Assembly: GCA_052387775.1 (NCBI GenBank)
Contig: JBQTIV010000071.1
Span: forward strand, 1 to 53,734
From: Betaproteobacteria bacterium
GTDB lineage: Bacteria; Pseudomonadota; Gammaproteobacteria; Burkholderiales; JACQAP01
Direction of reading: 5' to 3'
DNA: 53,734 nucleotides
A model generated the notes under the pieces. That model saw only the letters and a program-made list of their open reading frames with translations. It did not search any database and was not told the DNA's origin. Positions 1 through 9,418 of the stretch are shown one piece after another; position 1 is the stretch's first letter, and each line of letters starts with the position of its first letter. The translations under genes and the position numbers were made by a program.

Positions 1-2017
1 CGACGTCGAACAGCGTCACGTTGCCGGTGTTGGTGACCGTGTAGCTGTAGTTGATCTCGTCGCCCGCGTCCTCGCCGTTGGCGTCCTGGTCCTCGACCCC
101 GTCGTTGGTCTTCACGACCGTGAGCTCAGGAGCGGCCCCGAAGTAGGAACTGTCGTCGCTGAATTGCGCTGTAACAAGGTTAAATGTGCCCTCGGCAGTG
201 CCGGTGTTCTCGTAGAGGTCTACCTCCGCCGTGCCCGTGGCCGTGTAATACCAGGTCTCGCCAACCTCGAGCACGTTGTCGTCGTCGTCGCCCGTCAGGT
301 ATGTCGGCGTCACGCCGAACTGGTCGTCGGTCACTACGACATCGGAAAGGTCATATGTGCCCGGATTTGTGACCTGGTAGATCCAGGTCACTTCCTCGCC
401 TACCAGGATGAAGGCACCGTCAGTGGCGTTGTTGGTGAAATCGCTCTCGACAGTGCCCGCCGTGGTAGTGCCGTCCAGCGTGCGCTTCTCGATGCCGATG
501 ATGACGTCCTGCGCATTGAACGTGAACTCGTCCTTAAACGTGAGCGTCCAGGCGTCGCCGTTCGTCAGGGTGATACTCACCTCATCGGCAACGGGGTCAA
601 TCTCCGTATCAGCCGTGTCTGGATCGTTGATAGGATCGACCTCCAAGAGGTCGACACTCGTCAAATCCCAGAAATCCGGAATGGGAGTTTCAACAATCGT
701 GTACTCGCCGAATTCCGTAAAGCTAAACGTTTTCGAGGAAAACACTCCGTCCCCGTCATCACCATCGTCGTCGAGCTCGAACGCTTGAATGAAACCGTTC
801 GGGCCGTAAATCTCAAATGCGAAGACCTGATCAGGATTTTCATTCTCATCGAAGGGGTCGAACGCGTCCTTCACGATCGTGATGGACATGGGCGTCCCCG
901 TAAGCGCCCACTCTTCAAACCCGCCGCCCGCATTATAAGCGCCGCCCTCGTAGCCGAATGCCGAATAGAGGTAAACGTACGGCAGTTCAGCGTCTTGGAA
1001 GAGTTCGTCGGGTATCAAGACCCGGATATCGCTCTGGCCGCTGCCGTGGGAGAGGTCGGCGTTAAGTGCCAACGAGGTATTGCCATCGCCGTCCATGTCG
1101 TAGACGAGTAGCGAGTCGCCGCTGGTAAACGATCCGTCTTCGGGATTGTCCGCAGTGCCGCCGGTACCGTACGTGAAGCCATGGAGCGATCCGTTCTCGC
1201 CCAGATAGATCTGCAGCGCATCAAGCGAAACGAATCCTTCGTTTTTGCTGTTGGGTTCGTTGATATCGAGCAGAAACTCGCGGTATTCAACCTCACCGAC
1301 CGTGACGATCGGCACGTTTGCCAAAAGTAGCGCCCGCGTAAACTGCGGGCTCGAGTTCTCGTCGAACTCAAGCGGCCGGTGATCGGTGTTGTAGCCCTGC
1401 TCGTTCGTGTCGTTTCCGGGGGACTGGACACGGACGAATGAATGGATGAACCCTGTTCCAGCCGGTTGTTGGTAGAACTGCTCGAAGACGGCGTCATTGA
1501 TCGACTCCGGACCATCGTCAGCCTCGACCAGATTATGGTCCAGGGGATCGGGCAGCGCGTCGGTGAACGAGGTCGATGCGACCTGCCCGGTCGAGGTGTC
1601 ATCCTTGGTTCCCGCTTTGCCATCTTTTCCCAAGTTGATGCCGCTCGCTGTCAGCAAGAATGTCGAGCCGAACGAATCGTCGGGGTTCACATACCAACTG
1701 GTGACGATGGTCCCGTTTGCGACACCGTCAAGATCGCCCCCGTCATCCGCAGTGCCTAGGAGGCCGTCGGCACCCGCGGTTCGCACCCCGTCGGTGACAT
1801 ACCACTTCTGGTGGCCCCCGCCCGTCGCGTTCGTCTGGGTATCGAGCTTGTCATCCAGGGTTCCGTACTTGCCGTCCTTGCCCGCATCCAGTACATGCGA
1901 TACCTGGAAGGCGATGGTTGACCCAACCAGGAAGTTTTTCGCGGTGATGACCGCCGTGCTGCCCGGCAGGTAGTCGAGGAGGTCGGTCGTTACACTCGGG
2001 CTGGGTGTGGTTGCCAT
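1..2017 (-). CDS. Large secreted repeat protein / putative adhesin, N-terminal part only (continues beyond window start); probable T1SS substrate
   Basis: ATG at 2017 after a GGGGA RBS, and the frame runs to the window edge. Reads MATTPSPSVTTDLLDYLPGSTAVITAKNF..., with three GxDGxxGTxDD motifs, an FVRVQ..EQGYNTD..FDEN segment, a prealbumin/SpaA-like segment and DUF11/DUF7507-like repeats (GEEVTWIYQVTNPG; GDEINYSYTVTNTGNVTLFDV). Acidic and Thr/Gly-rich, with no Sec signal. Confidence 0.85.
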   Translation of the reverse strand, partial: MATTPSPSVTTDLLDYLPGSTAVITAKNFLVGSTIAFQVSHVLDAGKDGKYGTLDDKLDTQTNATGGGHQKWYVTDGVRTAGADGLLGTADDGGDLDGVANGTIVTSWYVNPDDSFGSTFLLTASGINLGKDGKAGTKDDTSTGQVASTSFTDALPDPLDHNLVEADDGPESINDAVFEQFYQQPAGTGFIHSFVRVQSPGNDTNEQGYNTDHRPLEFDENSSPQFTRALLLANVPIVTVGEVEYREFLLDINEPNSKNEGFVSLDALQIYLGENGSLHGFTYGTGGTADNPEDGSFTSGDSLLVYDMDGDGNTSLALNADLSHGSGQSDIRVLIPDELFQDAELPYVYLYSAFGYEGGAYNAGGGFEEWALTGTPMSITIVKDAFDPFDENENPDQVFAFEIYGPNGFIQAFELDDDGDDGDGVFSSKTFSFTEFGEYTIVETPIPDFWDLTSVDLLEVDPINDPDTADTEIDPVADEVSITLTNGDAWTLTFKDEFTFNAQDVIIGIEKRTLDGTTTAGTVESDFTNNATDGAFILVGEEVTWIYQVTNPGTYDLSDVVVTDDQFGVTPTYLTGDDDDNVLEVGETWYYTATGTAEVDLYENTGTAEGTFNLVTAQFSDDSSYFGAAPELTVVKTNDGVEDQDANGEDAGDEINYSYTVTNTGNVTLFDV

Positions 2018-2061
2018 GGTTTTCCCCTAAATTCAGAAATTGTGATTGCCTGGTTTATCAA

Positions 2062-2394
2062 TTAAGCATTTCCGGCGCACGACGGATATCGAAGTCCTGT
2101 GCGCGCCGCGTGAAATCTTGTGATTGCATCGTCAATCGCCACGTAATCGAACGAGACGATGTGGCTGTCGCCGGAGTAAAGGGAGTCAAACGGGCCGATG
2201 GGAACGAACGACCGGATCCCGTGCGCGGTAAAGGCGCACCCCATGGGCGCGTGGCCCATCAGGCTGGAGCAGAAATCGGTGGTGTTGTCGGCCGCCGTGC
2301 CGCTGAACGCCATGTCCTCATCGGACAAGGCGTTGACACTGGTGGAAAGAGACGGCTGGGCGCCGTCCAACGACCGTTCGTTGACGTGAAACAC
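2062..2394 (-). CDS. Small ORF or remnant containing one degenerate VCBS/cadherin-like Ig repeat
   Basis: GTG at 2394 after AGGGAGG. FVPIGPFDSLYSGDSHIVSFDYVAIDD resembles the VCBS-type motif FDPNGAFDSLxxGExxxVSFTYxxxD. Lies between the riboswitch and the adhesin gene. Confidence 0.45.
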   Translation of the reverse strand: MFHVNERSLDGAQPSLSTSVNALSDEDMAFSGTAADNTTDFCSSLMGHAPMGCAFTAHGIRSFVPIGPFDSLYSGDSHIVSFDYVAIDDAITRFHAARTGLRYPSCAGNA

Positions 2395-2580
2395 ACTTCC
2401 TCCCTTGAACAACGGTGACGCCCGCTACTTGCACAACCTCATCGCCTACGGCCGCCTCAGTATCCTCTGACCCGGCCGCGTGTGCCCTTTGATAAAGATC
2501 AAGAGCACAACAATGAGCTCAAATATTTTTCTGACTTTTTTATTTTCTTGCGCGGAGCGCCGCGATGCACGCTTCCGCAC

Positions 2581-2616
2581 AAATAAAAAAACCGGGTTGC
2601 CTTTAAGGCAACCCGG
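2581..2616 (-). terminator. Intrinsic terminator (riboswitch expression platform)
   Basis: CCGGGTTGCC-TTAAA-GGCAACCCGG stem followed by TTTTTTTATTT on the minus strand. Its 5' arm is the 3' end of the aptamer. Confidence 0.9.
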
Positions 2617-2680
2617 CCGTCTTTGCAGGAGACCCGTGGTTTTCCGACCCCGCATTTCTACGGGTGTGGCTTTGTCTTAA
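2603..2680 (-). ncRNA. c-di-GMP-I (GEMM) riboswitch aptamer
   Basis: Minus strand reads UUAAG-ACAAAG-CC-ACA-CCCGUA-GAAA-UGCGGG-GUC-GG-AAA-ACCACGGGUCU-CCUGCAA-AGAC-GGCCGGGUUGC-CUUAA. This gives P1 UUAAG/CUUAA, P2 with a GAAA tetraloop, an AAA junction, P3 and a 3' GGUUGCC, matching the GEMM architecture with G20 and C92 equivalents retained. Confidence 0.88.
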
Positions 2681-2825
2681 GTAGAACCGGATCGAGGCGC
2701 GCAACCCACTACTACAACTGGACCGCCCAACCCTTTTTTTGCCCTGGCTTCCAGCCGGATCGATGGATCAATCCCCGTTTCCACCGATGCGGCCGATCGA
2801 ACCGATATGATCGTAACGCCGAAAA

Positions 2826-2842
2826 AGCTTAACCTATGCCAA
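2826..2842 (-). promoter_or_regulatory. Possible sigma-54 promoter facing the riboswitch and adhesin
   Basis: TGGCAT-AGGTT-AAGC keeps GG-N10-GC spacing, but the -12 box is AAGC rather than TTGC. Confidence 0.3.
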
Positions 2843-3024
2843 GATAAAGTCAACAGTTGATGAATTTAGTAATGCACATTTCATATTGGCGTTGGGCGCG
2901 ATCAGGGAGTCGGTCCCGCCATTGTGATATAGCCCGATGCCCTCAACCGATTCTGCAGATAACACATGAATTCAGCGCAGCAACTATATGTTTGAAAAAG
3001 GCTCAGACCTGCAAGGCAAGCAAT

Positions 3025-3199
3025 TGGGCGATTCGGGGATTGAGCAATTGAGCGGCCTCCCCAGAAGGCGGGGAAGGGAAGCGAACGAGCGATTCGGCGA
3101 TTAAGCGATTTAGAGCCCTCCCACCCTACCCTCCCCCGCAAGCGGGGATAGGGAGGCGGTTGAGCGATTCGGCGATTGAGCGATTGAGAGCCCTCCCCC
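3025..3199. repeat. Left composite repeat: REP-like CCCTCCCCCGCAAGCGGGGATAGGG palindrome plus GCGATTRR octamer arrays
   Basis: Full unit at 3120-3199; partial or degenerate copies at ~3087-3120 and ~3025-3062. Confidence 0.85.
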
Positions 3200-3280
3200 G
3201 CTAGCACAACCGGTACGGGGCCTGGCTAACATTTACTTGAGCACATAATACTTCCACATATACACGTTGGAGGGAGCGGC

Positions 3281-3509
3281 ATGGGCCAAATGACCATTTA
3301 CCTGGATAGCGAAACGGAAGCGAAGGCACGGGCGGCGGCGCGCGCCGAGGGAATGCCGCTCAGCAAGTGGGTTGCCGGGCGCATACGACGGCGCGCGCGG
3401 CGAATGGCCCGACGCAGTCCGGGCGCTGGCGGGCGCATGGCCCGACCTGCCCTCGCCCGCGCGGATCCGCAAATCGAGGGCGAAGGACGTCGCACGAGGC
3501 CGCGTGTAG
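3281..3509 (+). pseudogene. CopG/RHH-type antitoxin, frameshifted
   Basis: MGQMTIYLDSETEAKARAAARAEGMPLSKWVA. The family-like C-terminus GEWPDAVRALAGAWPDLPSP...* resumes in the +1 frame at 3399, consistent with loss of one GC from a CG run. Stop TAG at 3507-3509. Confidence 0.75.
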
Positions 3510-3511
3510 CG

Positions 3512-3906
3512 ATGTACGCCTTGGACACCAATACGGTCCTTGACTACTTCAAGGGGAAAGGCGAGGTCGCGAAGAATTTGCTTGCGGTCCCACCGGGGGA
3601 AGTGGCGTTGCCCGCCATCGTTGCCTACGAAGTCTGGTTCGGTGTGCTGGGCTCGCAGAACGCCAAGCGCCGCCAGGCCTAGTACGAGCAGTTCCTCGCG
3701 ACAGTCGAGGTCCTGCCGTTCGATTCCACCGTCGGCCGGCGGGCCGCAGAGCTCCGTTACGCCCTGGAGCGCCGCGGTGAAGGCATAGGCCCAATGGACA
3801 CCTTGATCGCGGCTACGGCGCTCTCACGCAACGCAACCCTGGTGACGCGCAACCTGCGCGAATTCGGCAGGGTGCAGGGGTTGACTTCGTCGACTGGCAC
3901 GGCTGA
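3512..3906 (+). pseudogene. vapC: VapC/PIN toxin with an internal stop and a 3' frameshift
   Basis: MYALDTN...YEVWFG...IGPMDTLIAATALSRNATLVTRNLREFGRVQGL. In-frame TAG at 3680-3682; the expected ending FVDWHG* is in a shifted frame (3886-3906). Confidence 0.85.
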
Positions 3907-4026
3907 GAGAAAAGCGATAGGAAAATCAATCCGGCACCGATTTTGCCGCGCCGAGCCCGTGCGCCGGTCGAACATTGCGAATGAGCTCGCAGAGTGCGCA
4001 TGACGGGTTTTATGTTCACGCTGCCC

Positions 4027-4107
4027 CCCACCCTAATCCTCCCCCGCAAGCGGAGATAGGGAGGCGATTGAGCGATTCGGCGATTAAGCGATTGAGAGCC
4101 CTCCCCC
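4027..4107. repeat. Right copy of the ~80-bp composite direct repeat
   Basis: Matches 3120-3199 with about five differences. Confidence 0.85.
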
Positions 4108-4294
4108 TGCGGCCCAGGGGGGCTTGTAATGTGGCCGGCAGACGCCCAGAATGTCCATGTTTTTTGCGGTACGGCAATAACTTAGCAGCGATATAACAAC
4201 AAGCTGCCCGGTCAAAACGGGACCACGGGCACGGTAACGGCCTGGGGGAGGGCCACCACAGGTTTGGCAGTACCCATTGGGAGGTAACGCGCCA

Positions 4295-6001
4295 GTGCGC
4301 GAATTTTTTGTCCGGTTCCGGTCCTACTTCATCTACGCGGCCTTCTTCAGCCTGGCGATAAACCTGCTGATGCTGGTGCCTGCACTTTTCATGCTGCAGG
4401 TTTTCGACCGCGTGGTCAGCAGCCGCAGCCAGGAAACCCTGGTGATGCTCGCGGTACTGGCCGGCGGCGCGCTGCTTTTCATGGCCTATCTGGATGTGAT
4501 CCGCTCGCGGCTGCTTTCCGGCGCGGGCGTGGCTCTGGAGAAACTGGTGGGTCCGCGCGTGCTCGTCGACATGGTTCGACGCGGCACCATGCCGAATAAT
4601 CGCAATGCGATGCACGGGCTGCGCGATGTCGGTGCGATACGCGCCTTCCTGACCGGACCGGGGATCGTGGCGCTTTTCGATGCGCCCTGGGTACCGATCT
4701 TCGTATTGATCATCTGGCTTTTCCACCCGCTGCTCGGCGGCATTGCGCTGGCCGGTGCAGTGCTTCTTTTCGGCATCGCCTGGCTGAACGAAAGGCTCTC
4801 GCGCAAGCCGCTGGAGCAGATGCAACTCGAGTCGCGCAAGGCGGGCCGCTTCGCCGATCAGACCGTCAGCCATGCCGAAGTGGCCGGCGCGTTGGGCATG
4901 GTCGAGAATCTCGCCCGCGGCTGGCGCGGACTCAGCCATAACGTGCTCAACCATCAGTTGGACGCCAATCGCGCCTCATCACTGGCATCGAGCGCATCGC
5001 GCTTCACCCGCCAGTTCCTGCAGGTGGCGATGCTGGCGGCGGGCGCCTGGCTGGTCATCAATCAGTCGGCAACGATCGGCGTAATGATCGCCGCTACTAT
5101 CCTGCTCGGCAGGGCGCTGGCGCCGGTGGAATCGGCGATCGCCGGGTGGAAGAGCCTCGTCGATGCGCGCAGCGCCTACGGGCGACTGGACAAGGATCTG
5201 AGCGCAGCAAAGGACGCCGAGCCGGTAACGAAACTGCCGGCGCCGGTTGGCGCCCTTAACGTGGAGCAGGTGGTGTTCGGGTTTGTCGGCCAGGACAAGC
5301 CGATCATCAAGCGGGTGTCATTCGATCTGCGGGCCGGTGAAGCGCTGGCAATCGTGGGGCCAAGCGCGGCAGGCAAGTCGACATTGACGAAACTGATCGT
5401 CGGCATCTGGCGCCCGCTGACGGGCGTGGTCCGGCTGGACGGCGCGGATATCAGCACGTGGCCGCGCGAGCGCCTCGGGCCATTCGTCGGCTACTTGCCG
5501 CAGAACGTCGAACTGTTTGCGGGCACGGTGAGCGAAAACATCGCGCGCCTTGGCGAAGTCAATTCCTCGGCGGTGATCGAAGCGGCCAAGCGAGCCAATG
5601 CGCATGAAATGATCCTGCGGCTGCCGAAGGGCTACGACACGCCGATCGGCGATGGCGGCGCATTTCTTTCCGCCGGGCAGCGCCAGCGCGTCGCACTGGC
5701 GCGGGCGCTGTATGGCACGCCACGGTTGGTCGTACTGGACGAGCCGAACTCCAACCTGGACAACGAAGGCGAGACCGCGCTGATCGAAGCGATGCGCAAC
5801 CTCAAGCCTGCCGGCGTGACGGTGGTCGTGGTCACACACCGCACGCCGCTTCTCGCCGCCATGGACAAGGTGATCCTGCTGCGCGACGGCGTAGTCGAAA
5901 AGCAGGGAGCCGTTGCCGACGTTCTCGGTCCGGCGCGCCCGCGCCCGGCCGAGGCCGGTGCCCAGGCGGGCGCCGAGCAGGCCGTGATCAAGCGCGGTTA
6001 G
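4295..6001 (+). CDS. prtD: Type I secretion ABC transporter permease/ATPase (PrtD/AprD family)
   Basis: GTG at 4295 after GGGAGG. Motifs FMLQVFDRV, FDAPW, Walker A GPSAAGKST, LSAGQRQR, LDEPNSNLD. Confidence 0.92.
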   Translation: MREFFVRFRSYFIYAAFFSLAINLLMLVPALFMLQVFDRVVSSRSQETLVMLAVLAGGALLFMAYLDVIRSRLLSGAGVALEKLVGPRVLVDMVRRGTMPNNRNAMHGLRDVGAIRAFLTGPGIVALFDAPWVPIFVLIIWLFHPLLGGIALAGAVLLFGIAWLNERLSRKPLEQMQLESRKAGRFADQTVSHAEVAGALGMVENLARGWRGLSHNVLNHQLDANRASSLASSASRFTRQFLQVAMLAAGAWLVINQSATIGVMIAATILLGRALAPVESAIAGWKSLVDARSAYGRLDKDLSAAKDAEPVTKLPAPVGALNVEQVVFGFVGQDKPIIKRVSFDLRAGEALAIVGPSAAGKSTLTKLIVGIWRPLTGVVRLDGADISTWPRERLGPFVGYLPQNVELFAGTVSENIARLGEVNSSAVIEAAKRANAHEMILRLPKGYDTPIGDGGAFLSAGQRQRVALARALYGTPRLVVLDEPNSNLDNEGETALIEAMRNLKPAGVTVVVVTHRTPLLAAMDKVILLRDGVVEKQGAVADVLGPARPRPAEAGAQAGAEQAVIKRG

Positions 6002-6013
6002 GTTTATAGATAC

Positions 6014-7348
6014 ATGGCCAACTCTCTCCTCGATCTGGTACTGCCATCGCTTGACGTCGAGCAGGCCGACAATCCCCGCCGGCTAATCCACGCGGGGTTG
6101 GCCGCTATCGTGCTGTTGATTCTCAGCGTTTCGGCATGGGTCGCCCTGGCGCCGGTGAGCGGCGCCGCCATCGCGCCGGGCGTGGTGAAGGTGGACATGA
6201 ACCGCAAGACGGTGCAACACCAGGAGGGCGGGCTCGTCAGCGAGATCCTGGTGCGCGATGGCGACAAGGTGAAAGCCGGGCAGACGCTGATCGTGCTGAG
6301 GGATATCCGCGTCGACGCCGGCAACGAGCTGGCAAAGACGCAGCTCGACGCCGATCTGGCGAAAGCAGCGCGCCTCGCCGCAGAACAGGCGTGGGCGCTG
6401 AAAATCAAATTTCCCGATGAACTGCTTGCCCGCAAAGACGATCCGCGGGTGGCGGAGCTGTTGCAACGCGAAAGCGAATTGTTCAAGGCGCGTCGCGATG
6501 CATACGGGAACCAGGTCGCGCTGATTCGCACGCAGATTCACGAGATCGAGGCCGAAATCGCCGGGCGCAAACAGCAGCTTCGTGCCGACAGCGACGCGAT
6601 ACGGCTGTTGCAGGAAGAGCTTACCGCCAACGAGTCGCTGGTCGGCGAGGGCTTCGTCTCCAAGGTCCGCATCCTGACCCTGCAACGCAACCGCGCCGAG
6701 CTTTTGTCGCGGCGCGGAGAAAATGAATCGGAACTTTCGCGCGCACGCCAGAAAGTTGCTGACCTGCAACTGCGCGCGGAAACGCTACGCAGCACTTTTA
6801 TGCAGGAAGCCGCGGGAGAACTCAGCCAGACGACTGCGAAAATCTTCGACCTGCAGGAGCGCGTGCGCCCGGCGCAGGACGCGGAGGAACGCCAGCGCAT
6901 CACCGCGCCGATCGCCGGCGAGGTGGTGGATCTGAAAATAACTTCGATCGGCGGCGTGATCGGTCCGCGCGAACCGATACTCGACATCGTGCCGGAAAAC
7001 CCGGACCTGATCGTCGAGGCACGCGTGCGCCCGGAGGACATCAACTTTGTCCACGCGGGCGCCGAAGCCGATGTGCGGCTGACTTCGTTCCGCCGCCGGA
7101 TCACCCCGACAGTCGCGGGCACGGTGGTCTACGTCTCCGCCGACCGGCTGGAGGACAGGGCCACCAACACCTTTTACTACACTGCGCGGGTGCGGGTGAC
7201 GCCGCAGGTACTTAAGCAGGCCGGCAATCTCATGCTGCAGGCCGGCATGCCGGCCGAAGTCTTCGTCAAGACCGAAGCGCGCACGGCCTTCGAATACCTC
7301 CTCGATCCGATCTCCGGTTTCCTGCAGCGCTCGATGCGCGAGCATTAG
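6014..7348 (+). CDS. prtE: HlyD-family type I secretion membrane fusion protein (PrtE/AprE)
   Basis: N-terminal TM, VQHQEGG..EILVRDGDKV, long coiled coil, ITAPIAG, GMPAEVFVKT. Confidence 0.92.
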   Translation: MANSLLDLVLPSLDVEQADNPRRLIHAGLAAIVLLILSVSAWVALAPVSGAAIAPGVVKVDMNRKTVQHQEGGLVSEILVRDGDKVKAGQTLIVLRDIRVDAGNELAKTQLDADLAKAARLAAEQAWALKIKFPDELLARKDDPRVAELLQRESELFKARRDAYGNQVALIRTQIHEIEAEIAGRKQQLRADSDAIRLLQEELTANESLVGEGFVSKVRILTLQRNRAELLSRRGENESELSRARQKVADLQLRAETLRSTFMQEAAGELSQTTAKIFDLQERVRPAQDAEERQRITAPIAGEVVDLKITSIGGVIGPREPILDIVPENPDLIVEARVRPEDINFVHAGAEADVRLTSFRRRITPTVAGTVVYVSADRLEDRATNTFYYTARVRVTPQVLKQAGNLMLQAGMPAEVFVKTEARTAFEYLLDPISGFLQRSMREH

Positions 7349-7445
7349 GAAAGGACTGAGGACGACAGAACAGGATTGAGGATTGCGGATTGAGGATTGA
7401 GCAAGTGCAAGGACTCAGAACGACACAACAGGATTGAGGACGGAG
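7349..7445. repeat. GAGGATT heptamer array containing a 32-bp direct repeat
   Basis: 7351-7382 and 7409-7440 differ at three positions; starts immediately after the prtE stop. Confidence 0.8.
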
Positions 7446-7552
7446 TTAAGGCGAGTGCCCACTCGCTTGCAGCGCGTCAAGGCTAAACAGCCCGATCTTT
7501 CCCTTGAGCAGCGCGCCGAACCGCTGCTGCGCAATCTCGATCCTGCGCCGAC

Positions 7553-7915
7553 TTATCTGATCCGTGAGGCCATGGGTTTCACTGAAAGCCGCAATCCGGC
7601 AGCGGCGAGCAATGCGGTCAAGCTGCGCAGCTCGGGGTTGCCCGATTCGGAAAGCATCCGGTAGGTCGCTTCGCGGCTGAGCTTCGACTTGCGAGCGACT
7701 TTGGAAACGCCGCCGACCGCCTGCGCGACGTGGCGCAGCGCGAGCATCAGCCCCGCCTGGTCGCCGTCCTCGATCGCCGCTTCGAGATACGCCGCCGCTT
7801 CTTCAGGGTCTTTCAGGCGTTCGATCAGCCATGGTTCATACGGGACGCTTGGGGGAGCGGCTTTTTTCGGCGCGGTCCTTGTAGTCCTGTAGGTACGCTT
7901 TCGCATGTTCGACAT
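7553..7915 (-). CDS. Addiction-module antidote protein (HI1420-like HTH antitoxin), orphan
   Basis: LKDPEEAAAYLEAAIEDGD..LMLALRHVAQAVGGVSKVA..SREATYRMLSESGNPELRSL. Start at 7915 or 7906. No cognate toxin gene adjacent. Confidence 0.85.
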   Translation of the reverse strand: MSNMRKRTYRTTRTAPKKAAPPSVPYEPWLIERLKDPEEAAAYLEAAIEDGDQAGLMLALRHVAQAVGGVSKVARKSKLSREATYRMLSESGNPELRSLTALLAAAGLRLSVKPMASRIR

Positions 7916-7920
7916 GAGCA

Positions 7921-7940
7921 CTGTAACTTATAGATTACAG
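7921..7940. promoter_or_regulatory. Inverted repeat, probable antitoxin operator
   Basis: CTGTAA-CTTATAGA-TTACAG lies directly upstream of the antidote start codon. Confidence 0.55.
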
Positions 7941-7944
7941 AGAC

Positions 7945-8158
7945 TCAAGCGCGGCGCGGGTATTTGCCGAGGGGAGAGCTGCCGACCAGTAGGAAGCCTG
8001 CGGCGGTGAGGCGCCCGCGCGTTTCGGGAAGGCGGGTGATGCGCACCACCTCGGCGTCGAGCCTCGTGATGATCTGCGGCGGCGTCCCGGCGGTCACGAG
8101 GAACCCGGTTCACGAATCGAATCCACGTTTAAAGCTTGGGAAGCTTTCCTTCTACCAT
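7945..8158 (-). pseudogene. C-terminal fragment of a Bug/TctC tripartite tricarboxylate transporter binding protein
   Basis: Reads ..DS*TGFLVTAGTPPQIITRLDAEVVRITRLPETRGRLTAAGFLLVGSSP, with TGA (8110-8112) replacing the conserved Trp of W-x-G-x-x-x-PAGTP. Upstream MVEGKLP is in another frame. Confidence 0.65.
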
Positions 8159-8214
8159 TGAACTACACCCGCGTGCTAGCATTGCATGTTCACGAAAATG
8201 GCTCGTATCTTGAA

Positions 8215-8418
8215 GTGATTGCACTCACCGTCAACGGCCAATCGCGGTCGTTCCCAGGCCCCTTGAACGCTACCCGCCTCATCGAAGAACTGGAACTCAA
8301 GGGCAAGCGTATCGCGCTGGAACGCAACGGCGAAATCGTCCCACGCAGCCAGTTCGACCAGGTGGCGCTTGCGGACGGCGACGCGCTCGAAATCGTCGTG
8401 GCGGTTGGAGGGGGATAA
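8215..8418 (+). CDS. thiS: Thiamine biosynthesis sulfur carrier ThiS
   Basis: GTG start; VNG...NGEIVPRS...EIVVAVGGG C-terminus; upstream of thiG. Confidence 0.93.
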   Translation: MIALTVNGQSRSFPGPLNATRLIEELELKGKRIALERNGEIVPRSQFDQVALADGDALEIVVAVGGG

Positions 8419-8423
8419 GAGCG

Positions 8424-8606
8424 GGGAATGGGTGATGAGTGATGTGAATGGTGAATCGTGAATCGGAAATCGTGGATGGGTGTTTAGTGATGAGTGATGA
8501 GTGATGAGTGATAGGCAACGACTGATGAACAATGAGCGATGGGTTAAACCCAATCCTCAATCCTCGATCCTCAATCACCATCACCCATCACTCATTGCTC
8601 ATCACC
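8424..8606. repeat. Inverted pair of heptamer arrays (GTGATGA/GTGAATC ... TCAYCAC) enclosing an AATCCTC array
   Basis: Fills the thiS-thiG intergenic gap. Confidence 0.8.
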
Positions 8607-8614
8607 GAATTTAA

Positions 8615-9418
8615 ATGGATCAACTCGTAATAGCAGGAAAATCCTACTCGTCGCGGCTGCTGGTCGGCACCGGCAAGTATCAGGACTTCGCACAGACGCG
8701 CGCGGCGGTCGAGGCGAGCGGCGCGCAGATCGTCACCGTGGCGATCCGCCGCACCAACATCGGCCAGAACCCGAACGAACCGAATCTGCTCGATGCGCTG
8801 CCGCCGTCGCGCTACACCATCCTGCCGCACACCGCCGGTTGTTTCAGCGCGCAGGACGCGGTACGCACGCTGCGCCTGGCGCGCGAACTGCTCGATGGCC
8901 ACGAGCTGGTGAAGCTCGAGGTGCTGGGCGACCCGCACACGCTGTATCCCAACATGGTCGAGACGCTGGCCGCCGCCGAAACACTGGTGAAGGAAGGCTT
9001 CAAGGTGATGGTGTACACCTCCGATGATCCGATCCTCGCCAAGCGGCTCGAGGAAATCGGCTGCGTCGCGGTGATGCCGCTCGCCTCGCTGATCGGTTCC
9101 GGAATGGGCATCCTCAACCCCTGGAATCTGCAGATCATCCTTGCCAATGCCAAGGTTCCGGTGCTGGTGGACGCCGGCGTAGGCACGGCCTCCGACGCCG
9201 CCATCGCCATGGAACTGGGTTGCGACGGCGTGTTGATGAACACGGCGATCGCCGCCGCAAAGGATCCCGTGATGATGGCCTCGGCGATGAAAAAAGCGGT
9301 CGAGGCCGGACGCGAGGCTTTCCTCGCCGGGCGCATGGCGAAGAAGCTCTACTCCGCGGCGCCCTCCTCTCCGACAAGCGGAGTCATAGGCGCCGCCTCA
9401 AAGAACAAGGCCGCCTGA
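8615..9418 (+). CDS. thiG: Thiazole synthase ThiG
   Basis: [39 protein letters not shown]. Confidence 0.96.

What the first reader, a model, noticed from the sequence alone, without database searches (positions are those of the whole stretch)
1..7348. c-di-GMP ON-riboswitch controlling a large repeat protein divergent from a T1SS pair
Seen: a GEMM-I aptamer (2603-2680, minus) whose 3' strand CCGGGUUGCC is also the 5' arm of an intrinsic terminator. Downstream lie a VCBS-like ORF and a large signal-less Ig-repeat protein; prtD/prtE are transcribed divergently. Known: when a GEMM-I aptamer overlaps its terminator, ligand binding prevents termination, and PrtD/E systems export signal-less repeat proteins. 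Inference: adhesin transcription is switched on directly by c-di-GMP through RNA, unlike the protein-based LapD/LapG and FleQ control of Pseudomonas adhesins. A standard ORF-based annotation of this window would miss both the RNA and the gene.
Basis: partly seen in the sequence, partly recalled or inferred. Interest (0 to 1): 0.75.

Follow-up and report, generated by a model that had tools for sequence, protein, structure and literature searches.

The report
c-di-GMP ON-riboswitch before secreted repeat protein
A standard c-di-GMP-sensing RNA switch with a built-in transcription terminator sits in front of a large, acidic, signal-less repeat protein gene next to a type I secretion pump; this is a clear but ordinary example of a known way to switch on surface proteins.

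Summary
Rfam finds one GEMM-I aptamer at 2603-2680 (minus). It scores 62.5 bits on RF01051 and 69.8 bits on the GGC-variant model RF03167. The variant's defining G is an A here (2643), so the ligand triad is the canonical one for c-di-GMP. Aptamer nucleotides 2618-2606 form the 5' arm of a 13-bp terminator followed by U7, which is ON-switch architecture.

Downstream lie two genes. The first is a 110-aa ORF that is a divergent single VCBS/cadherin-like repeat. The second encodes a protein of at least 672 aa, cut by the contig end, with no signal peptide, no Cys, pI about 4 and DUF7507/DUF11 repeats. PrtD and HlyD-family genes lie divergently, 1.6 kb from the aptamer.

Export by T1SS is supported by gene neighbourhood: 8 of 9 relatives with enough flank have a PrtD gene next door, and one congener shows the same synteny. 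It remains unproven because the C-terminus is not in the assembly.

RNA control of adhesins by c-di-GMP is already known (Bc2/Cap, Vc1/GbpA), and this scan found similar leaders before on other DNA. The switch is not conserved with this gene family: 1 of 87 related loci has one. Gene callers did find the gene. Verdict: a new member of a known kind, of modest interest.

The parts
2603..2680 (-). c-di-GMP-I (GEMM-I) aptamer with the canonical ligand triad: G at 2670, A at 2643, C at 2608
   Evidence: RF03167 69.8 bits; RF01051 62.5 bits; nucleotides read from the alignment and the sequence
2585..2618 (-). Intrinsic terminator: 5' arm 2618-2606 (inside the aptamer), loop 2605-2603, 3' arm 2602-2590, with a 7-U run at 2591-2585 that overlaps the end of the 3' arm
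   Evidence: 13 pairs, 8 G-C; -23.5 kcal/mol and present in the leader MFE
2062..2394 (-). Small ORF (110 aa from GTG 2394 after GGAGGA; 116 aa from TTG 2412). It is a single divergent VCBS/tandem-95/cadherin-like repeat with no signal peptide. It may be a real small protein or a relic.
   Evidence: (P0090, 99% identity, 110 aa; 67 hits); GC3 0.76
2..2017 (-). 5' part (672 codons) of a large repeat-protein gene, cut by the contig end. It holds an MG/Ig-like domain (aa 3-156), a conserved jelly-roll-like domain (aa ~157-375, GGFEEW motif), then DUF7507/DUF11 repeats.
   Evidence: RBS GGGGAA before ATG 2017
4277..6001 (+). T1SS ABC permease/ATPase, PrtD subfamily
   Evidence: TIGR01842 652.6 bits, cut-off 510; Pfam ABC_membrane + ABC_tran
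6014..7348 (+). T1SS periplasmic adaptor, HlyD family
   Evidence: TIGR01843 364.5 bits, cut-off 208.65

Best explanation
A canonical class-I c-di-GMP riboswitch acts as a transcriptional ON switch. Without ligand, the nascent leader folds into the 13-bp terminator, whose 5' arm is the 3' part of the aptamer, and RNA polymerase stops at the U7 tract (about 2585-2591). With c-di-GMP bound, P2/P1 and the ligand-contacting C (2608) are held in the aptamer. The terminator cannot form, and transcription reads through into a two-gene unit.

The unit consists of a small single VCBS/cadherin-like-repeat ORF and a large, very acidic, cysteine-free, signal-less protein. That protein has an N-terminal Ig-like domain, a jelly-roll domain and DUF7507/DUF11 repeats. 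It is most likely exported in one step by the divergently encoded PrtD/HlyD type I system together with a TolC-like channel encoded elsewhere. High c-di-GMP would then put a surface or extracellular repeat protein out.

Shown: the aptamer, the terminator, their overlap, the ORFs and the T1SS genes. Inferred: ligand response, export route, adhesive role.
For: Aptamer scores and full-length model matches.

The G20, A47 and C92 equivalents are G, A and C (alignment). That these three contact c-di-GMP in Vc2 is stated in PMC4744006.

The only difference I see between the two printed Rfam consensus lines in this stretch is GCAAAg (RF01051) versus GCGAAg (RF03167). The window has A at that place.

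The terminator overlaps the aptamer and dominates the MFE.

The genome has 13 GGDEF matches on 12 contigs.

Cargo traits: pI about 4.05, 0 Cys, 123 D+E against 21 K+R, and no hydrophobic N-terminus.

Neighbourhood: 9 loci carry the same N-terminal module and have at least 5 kb downstream. In 8 of them a PrtD homologue follows the gene (L027, 28, 29, 33, 37, 39, 44, 45; not L036). L079, L082 and L089 have a PrtD homologue divergent upstream of the gene; L082 and L089 also show PrtE.

In congener G019 the same prtDE pair (80.7% nt identity over 3054 nt) faces a 1104+-aa protein. That protein has 12 RTX stretches and contains the same ~140-aa domain (58% identity).

Precedent for the mechanism: Bc2/cap (PMC4933901).
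Against: No experiment or RNA data were available.

The C-terminus, where a T1SS signal would lie, is absent from the assembly. No GGxGxD motif occurs in the 672 aa seen.

The T1SS genes are 1.6 kb from the aptamer, with a broken VapC-like gene in between, so they do not share a compact divergent promoter.

No TolC reaches the T1SS-TolC cut-off (best 111 bits against 225).

The riboswitch is not conserved with the gene family. Only 1 of 87 other loci has one (L080; 1 of the 34 re-scanned with Rfam). It is absent at the syntenic G019 locus.

No sigma-70-like promoter was found (0 sites).

The aptamer's P2 is short and lacks the internal-loop extension of the RF01051 consensus.
Confidence: 0.62

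Rival explanations
1. The riboswitch works as described, but the large protein is not cargo of the neighbouring T1SS, or is not an adhesin. The adjacency would be incidental, and the protein is exported another way or has another role, for example a protease-bearing or glycan-binding exoprotein.
For: There is a 1.6-kb spacer with a toxin-antitoxin relic between the two units. The C-terminus is unseen. There is no RTX motif in 672 aa. Relatives have varied C-termini: some have an HExxGH tail or a Peptidase_M10 domain, and P0010 has RTX-type repeats in its tail (read; Pfam HemolysinCabind). The jelly-roll domain has no clear structural relative (best Z 5.5).
Against: The PrtD neighbourhood recurs in 8 of 9 informative relatives, and in the syntenic congener. 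The composition is typical of T1SS substrates. No N-terminal signal for Sec or Tat is visible.
Confidence: 0.2
2. The aptamer belongs to the c-di-GMP-I-GGC variant class, as Rfam's best hit says, and senses something other than c-di-GMP or senses it poorly.
For: RF03167 outscores RF01051 (69.8 against 62.5 bits) and passes its gathering score of 59.
Against: The one consensus position that differs between the two models (G in RF03167, A in RF01051) is A here (2643). G (2670) and C (2608) are canonical. The higher score is explained by the short P2, which the variant model shares. That 'GGC' names the G20/A47G/C92 triad is recalled: Weinberg et al. 2017 was not held.
Confidence: 0.05
3. The element is an inactive or decaying leader, or the terminator acts constitutively. 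This would be a recently transferred cassette not integrated into the host's c-di-GMP network.
For: It is the only GEMM-I in this genome. GEMM-I occurs in 5 of 37 genomes of the genus, this one included, and nowhere else beside prtDE. The cargo side of the locus is replaced between congeners. The small ORF looks like a lone, drifted repeat with 3 Cys.
Against: All conserved aptamer positions, the GAAA tetraloop and a perfect 10-bp terminator core are intact. The genome has 13 GGDEF matches.
Confidence: 0.08

Closest known systems
Bc2 c-di-GMP-I riboswitch upstream of cap (collagen adhesion protein), Bacillus thuringiensis (PMC4933901; abstract and passages read)
   Same: Both are class-I aptamers followed by an intrinsic terminator. 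c-di-GMP binding favours an anti-terminated fold and read-through into a surface adhesin-type gene (repression/de-repression).
   Different: Bc2 is in a Gram-positive host and its cargo is a collagen adhesion protein. Here the host is a diderm MAG, the putative cargo is T1SS-exported, and the aptamer itself is the anti-terminator. Nothing is tested experimentally.
Vc1 riboswitch upstream of gbpA, Vibrio cholerae (PMC4744006; passages read)
   Same: Both are GEMM-I with conserved G20/A47/C92 equivalents that positively regulate a secreted colonisation/adhesion factor in a Gram-negative bacterium.
   Different: GbpA is a small chitin-binding protein and is not linked to a T1SS. As far as I read, the Vc1 platform is not a simple overlapping terminator.
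LapA / LapD-LapG / FleQ control of T1SS adhesins in Pseudomonas (PMC3032545, abstract seen in search listing; PMC6584795, passages)
   Same: A giant signal-less repeat protein next to an ABC/MFP type I system, with output raised by high c-di-GMP.
   Different: That control is protein-based (FleQ transcription, LapD/LapG proteolysis). Here no LapG (Peptidase_C93) was found in a 95.9%-complete genome. No Ala-Ala site is present in the first 160 aa, and Pfam gives no LapA domain.
Rfam RF03167, c-di-GMP-I-GGC variant
   Same: It is the best-scoring model, and both have a short P2 without the receptor-type internal loop.
   Different: The variant's G at the first junction nucleotide is A in the window (2643), so the defining feature is not met.
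Clostridioides difficile class-II ON riboswitches before sortase-anchored adhesins CD2831/CD3246 (PMC6366702; passages)
   Same: c-di-GMP acts through RNA to switch on predicted adhesins.
   Different: Those use a different aptamer class and a different anchoring route.

Membership tests
c-di-GMP-I (GEMM-I) riboswitch, RF01051 | Covariance-model score above the gathering threshold over the full model | tested here: met
   62.5 bits against 35, model 1-87
c-di-GMP-I (GEMM-I) riboswitch, RF01051 | Ligand-contacting nucleotides equivalent to Vc2 G20, A47 and C92 | tested here: met
   G 2670, A 2643 and C 2608, read from the alignment. Their role is stated in PMC4744006. All 6 GEMM-I of the genus share them.
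c-di-GMP-I (GEMM-I) riboswitch, RF01051 | GNRA tetraloop on the first hairpin, and the inter-helix C-G pair | tested here: met
   GAAA loop; C at model position 34 and G at position 66 are kept. Mapping these to Vc2 C44/G83 is my own reading, with numbering recalled.
c-di-GMP-I (GEMM-I) riboswitch, RF01051 | Tetraloop-receptor internal loop in the second hairpin | tested here: inconclusive
   P2 is short. The model's CUAAgg...cuAuG extension is deleted here, as it is in the RF03167 consensus.
c-di-GMP-I (GEMM-I) riboswitch, RF01051 | Selective binding of c-di-GMP | not testable with these tools
   Needs in-line probing or ITC.
c-di-GMP-I-GGC variant, RF03167 | Score above gathering | tested here: met
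   69.8 bits against 59
c-di-GMP-I-GGC variant, RF03167 | G instead of A at the first junction nucleotide (A47 equivalent) | tested here: not met
   Consensus G at model position 37; the window has A (blank in the match line). The meaning of the name 'GGC' is recalled, not read.
Transcriptional ON switch by aptamer/terminator competition (as in Bc2) | G+C-rich hairpin plus U tract, sharing a strand with the aptamer | tested here: met
   Of 7 GEMM-I leaders folded, only this one has a run of at least 5 U within 90 nt.
Transcriptional ON switch by aptamer/terminator competition (as in Bc2) | Ligand-dependent read-through | not testable with these tools
   No RNA holder was listed for the stretch.
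Type I secretion system and substrate | ABC exporter of the PrtD subfamily and an HlyD-type adaptor | tested here: met
Type I secretion system and substrate | TolC-type outer-membrane channel | tested here: inconclusive
   The best match is on contig C51: 111 bits, below the 225 cut-off of TIGR01844.
Type I secretion system and substrate | C-terminal secretion signal / RTX repeats on the cargo | not testable with these tools
   The gene runs off the contig. The rest was not found in the assembly.
Type I secretion system and substrate | No N-terminal signal peptide; acidic, Cys-poor; T1SS genes conserved next to relatives | tested here: met
   8 of 9 informative loci; G019 synteny
LapA-type adhesin under LapD/LapG | LapG (Peptidase_C93) in the genome, and an N-terminal retention module with an Ala-Ala cleavage site | tested here: not met
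   0 matches to PF06035 in a 95.9%-complete genome. No AA dipeptide in aa 1-160. No Pfam LapA domain.
VCBS repeat (TIGR01965) / Big_9 / Cadherin_4, for the small ORF | Match to the family model | tested here: not met
   No Pfam or NCBIfam hit even at E 1-10. Likeness is only through proteins that carry these repeats.

The most novel reading that the evidence does not exclude
c-di-GMP gates a type I secretion cargo purely at the RNA level, in a genome where no LapG was found. The riboswitch would travel with the cargo as a swappable cassette placed beside a conserved prtDE pair. In support, the cargo side differs between congeners, and the same N-terminal domain is riboswitch-led on an unrelated low-G+C metagenome contig (L080). 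This would be an undescribed but recurrent mode of T1SS-adhesin control.
Probability: 0.3. Interest if true: 0.5.

Novelty: new member of a known kind. Interest (0 to 1): 0.3.

Why it matters
It adds a clean, easily testable ON-type c-di-GMP riboswitch in an uncultured diderm bacterium. It suggests that type I secretion cargo can be put under direct RNA control by c-di-GMP. The reviews and papers I could search describe only protein-based control of T1SS adhesins (FleQ, LapD/LapG).

It also gives a practical warning for annotation. Rfam's clan competition files this aptamer as the GGC variant although the variant's defining nucleotide is absent.

Beyond that it is an expected pairing: c-di-GMP riboswitches before adhesin-like genes are well documented.

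Tried and rejected
Rest of the gene. tblastn of the 672 aa, Pfam DUF7507 over the genome, and C-terminal and repeat parts of 9 full-length relatives found nothing outside C71. The one exception is an RTX stretch on C88, which belongs to another truncated giant gene and cannot be linked.

Expression. No RNA holder was listed for window 1-4300.

Related loci. The genome-contig scan returned only 6 loci, and these match the query only over its first ~160 residues. Two alignments were too divergent for the metagenome scan. A 4-sequence alignment worked.

Function of the N-terminal module.
- Foldseek on the 400-aa model gave only generic beta-sandwich and adhesin rows with low TM.
- VIA-align placed aa 3-156 with MG/FN3/Ig-like domains at Z about 9.
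- The 224-aa middle domain (pLDDT 84.8, pTM 0.87) had no match above Z 5.5 and no Foldseek E of 0.001 or better.
- The ESM Atlas gave only leads (0.92 to an unnamed cluster, 0.84 to DUF8239).

Promoter. 0 sigma-70-like sites in 1900-4400.

Papers. Weinberg et al. 2017 and Sudarsan et al. 2008 are not held. The definition of 'GGC' and the original gene-association lists were therefore not read.

Complex prediction was not used because the part of the cargo that should touch the transporter is missing.
Full report
**Setting.** The window is a complete 53,734-nt contig (C71) of a 3.10-Mb, 202-contig, 62% G+C assembly. The assembly is rated 95.9% complete. The finding lies at the left end of the contig, so the large gene is cut by the contig end and no adjacent window exists.

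**The RNA.** cmscan of the whole window at gathering thresholds returns three tRNAs and one riboswitch. The riboswitch is at 2603-2679 (-), RF03167 c-di-GMP-I-GGC, 69.8 bits (gathering 59), E 1.6e-14, full model. The parent family RF01051 scores 62.5 bits (gathering 35) at 2604-2680. Both models find only this copy in the genome.

The two printed Rfam consensus lines (RF03167, RF01051) differ in one place that I could see across this stretch. After the first hairpin, RF01051 has GCAAAg and RF03167 has GCGAAg. The window has A there (2643); the match line is blank at that column. The G before the first hairpin (2670) and the C in the 3' junction (2608) are kept.

PMC4744006 (passages) states that G20, A47 and C92 contact c-di-GMP in Vc2. 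By my mapping these are the three positions above. I therefore read this as a canonical c-di-GMP aptamer that Rfam's clan competition files under the variant. The likely reason is that its second hairpin is short, like the variant model's. That 'GGC' stands for G20/G47/C92 is my recollection of Weinberg et al. 2017, which is not held. An A at the G20 position, as I recall for cGAMP-sensing GEMM-Ib, is not present.

**The expression platform.** The scan finds a 13-pair stem (8 G-C) at 2618->2590 with tail TTTTTATTTG. Its core is the perfect CCGGGUUGCC/GGCAACCCGG pair with loop UUAAA and a 7-U run at 2591-2585.

The 5' arm (2618-2606) lies entirely within the aptamer. It covers the bulge Gs, the 3' strand of the second helix, the junction GC with the ligand-contacting C, and the 3' strand of P1.

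The energies are:

| Structure | Energy (kcal/mol) |
|---|---|
| Terminator hairpin alone | -23.5 |
| MFE of the 131-nt leader (contains the terminator) | -49.9 |
| Leader with Rfam aptamer pairs enforced | -32.4 |

The two folds are mutually exclusive, and the terminator is the default. Ligand binding must therefore act as anti-termination. This is the logic shown experimentally for Bc2 before the cap adhesin gene (PMC4933901).

I folded 7 GEMM-I leaders: this one, five from the genus, and L080. Only this one has a run of at least 5 U within 90 nt of the aptamer. No sigma-70-like promoter was found, so the transcription start is unknown. No intact minus-strand gene lies upstream between 2680 and 4277, so the RNA heads its own unit.

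**Downstream genes: the small ORF.** It runs 2394-2062 from GTG after GGAGGA, or from TTG at 2412. GC3 is 0.76. It hits no Pfam or NCBIfam model even at lax thresholds.

A full HMMER scan of 1.84 billion representatives gives 67 hits at E of 0.001 or better. One is a 110-aa protein at 99% identity (P0090). Most of the rest are large to giant proteins that match through 2 to 18 repeat stretches. Those I scanned carry Big_9 / Cadherin_4 / Cadherin_5 domains (6 of 8 scanned). P0099 and P0091 also carry TIGR01965 VCBS and tandem-95 repeats. Identity to a P0099 repeat is 42%.

So 'VCBS-like' is fair in the loose sense. A lone repeat without any export signal, and with 3 Cys, may be a relic. I leave its status open. 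tblastn finds it in 0 of 87 related loci. A 34-nt trace of its 5' end lies upstream of the cargo gene in G019.

**Downstream genes: the large ORF.** It starts at ATG 2017 behind GGGGAA and is open to base 2, giving 672 aa.
- Pfam finds DUF7507 (57 bits; two stretches at the C-terminal end), and NCBIfam finds the DUF11-type repeat TIGR01451.
- It has pI about 4.05, no Cys, 123 D+E against 21 K+R, no hydrophobic N-terminus and no GGxGxD motif.
- Relatives are numerous: 58 longer proteins and 222 of similar length. None is above 45% identity over the shared module; higher figures (up to 70%) cover only 22-30% of the query.
- They share the same signal-less start and a ~370-aa N-terminal module with invariant residues including GGFEEW.
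- After the module come DUF7507/DUF11 or SdrD-B/Cna-type repeats and varied C-termini. Some end in an HExxGH tail or a Peptidase_M10 domain. One (P0010) has RTX-type repeats in its tail, by my reading and its Pfam HemolysinCabind entry. Others have an unannotated domain.
- They are also very acidic and nearly Cys-free.

AlphaFold2 models give an MG/FN3/Ig-like sandwich for aa 3-156 (Z about 9, generic). For aa 157-380 they give a confident jelly-roll-like domain (pLDDT 84.8, pTM 0.87) with no clear solved relative (best Z 5.5; no Foldseek E of 0.001 or better).

**Is it T1SS cargo?** PrtD and the HlyD-type adaptor are secure. A TolC-like gene exists on C51 but scores below the T1SS-TolC cut-off.

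The link to the cargo rests on neighbourhood.
- Nine metagenome loci carry the full N-terminal module and have at least 5 kb downstream. In 8 of them a PrtD homologue directly follows the gene; L036 is the exception.
- Three loci with only the first domain (L079, L082, L089) have a PrtD homologue divergent upstream; L082 and L089 also show PrtE.
- In congener G019 the orthologous prtDE (80.7% nt identity over 3054 nt) faces a 1104+-aa protein with 12 RTX stretches. That protein contains the same ~140-aa domain at 58% identity.
- Overall, PrtD appears in 12 of 87 loci. Many of those loci are too short to be informative.

This supports export by T1SS but does not show it. The decisive C-terminus is not in the assembly.

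The system is not LapA-like. No LapG was found, and there is no Ala-Ala site in the first 160 aa.

**How general is the pairing?** It is not conserved. A covariance model built from the six GEMM-I of the genus was run over 87 other loci encoding relatives. It finds one aptamer (L080, 48.7 bits). Rfam confirms it (RF01051, 53.3 bits) and finds no other in the 34 loci re-scanned.

In L080 the aptamer sits 68 nt before the ATG of a protein that starts with the same domain. It lies behind IS3-type transposase fragments and has no obvious terminator.

Within the genus, GEMM-I occurs in 5 of 37 genomes, this one included. The other five copies precede a subtilase with Big_7 domains, a PilW-like pilin, a Big_5 protein, an unannotated gene upstream of a ShlB-type transporter, and an unresolved stretch upstream of a CarboxypepD_reg-like protein and cyclase genes. 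These are mostly envelope or secreted products, and none lies beside prtDE. The large protein's N-terminal 480 aa match in only 1 of 36 congeners.

The cargo side of the prtDE locus therefore varies between species, and the riboswitch came with this particular cargo.

**Comparison and novelty.** The host makes c-di-GMP: 13 GGDEF matches on 12 contigs.

c-di-GMP riboswitches that switch on adhesin-type genes are established:
- Bc2/cap (PMC4933901)
- Vc1/gbpA (PMC4744006)
- class-II switches before C. difficile adhesins (PMC6366702)

This scan has reported GEMM-I leaders before giant TpsA, T9SS and other adhesins on other DNA.

For T1SS adhesins, the papers my searches returned describe protein-based control only. 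The three-term search gave 3 papers and the four-term search gave 7. I read passages of PMC6584795 and PMC6890996. I found no paper placing a riboswitch directly before a T1SS cargo gene in those searches. The library lacks most subscription papers.

I therefore rate this a new member of a known kind, with a modestly new target class.

- The gene and its neighbours are already called by gene finders (P0157, P0059).
- The RNA is found by routine Rfam annotation.
- The two units are not a tight divergent pair. A VapBC-like relic with an in-frame TAG lies between them.

Noticed in passing
window 3281-4003 (+): A VapBC-like toxin-antitoxin relic lies between the riboswitch unit and prtD. The PIN domain is split by an in-frame TAG at 3680-3682: N-terminal part 3518-3652, C-terminal part in 3683-4003 (37.8 bits). 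The antitoxin-like start runs on in the same frame.
   Followed up: partly
window 878-1549 (-), aa 157-380 of the large protein: A conserved ~220-aa domain with invariant G..G, E.GYN, D.N, SGSG..D and GGFEEW motifs. It models confidently (pLDDT 84.8, pTM 0.87) as a jelly-roll-like sandwich. It has no Pfam family and no clear solved relative (best Z 5.5). It is widespread at the N-terminus of signal-less repeat proteins of Mesorhizobium, Bradyrhizobium, Bosea, cyanobacteria and many MAGs.
   Followed up: partly
G000 contig C88, 3-4517 (+): The 3' 1504 codons of another giant protein with many RTX repeats and cadherin-like domains, open to the contig start. It is a second likely T1SS cargo cut by assembly, and it cannot be linked to the window's gene.
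   Followed up: partly
L007 (G019:C81) 1735-9363: A syntenic prtE-prtD pair (about 81% nt identity to the window's) faces a different cargo: a 1104+-aa RTX protein that carries the window protein's N-terminal domain internally (aa ~770-900). No GEMM-I is present. Cargo genes at this T1SS locus seem to be swapped or recombined between species.
   Followed up: partly
L080 2088-2167 (+) and 2235-3827 (+): A second GEMM-I (RF01051, 53.3 bits) lies directly before a protein starting with the same Ig-like domain, on a 45% G+C metagenome contig. It sits downstream of fragmented IS3-family transposase ORFs, and no terminator follows the aptamer.
   Followed up: partly
L013, L014, L015, L010, L016 (genus relatives): The other five GEMM-I copies of the genus precede an S8 subtilase with Big_7 domains, a PilW-like pilin, a Big_5 protein, an unannotated gene upstream of a ShlB-type two-partner secretion gene, and an unresolved ~1-kb stretch upstream of a CarboxypepD_reg-like protein and adenylate/guanylate cyclase genes. 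None has a U-run terminator within 90 nt.
   Followed up: partly
window 7553-7921 (-): An addiction-module antidote protein (TIGR02684, 61.9 bits) lies just after the T1SS pair. This is a second toxin-antitoxin trace flanking the locus.
   Followed up: no
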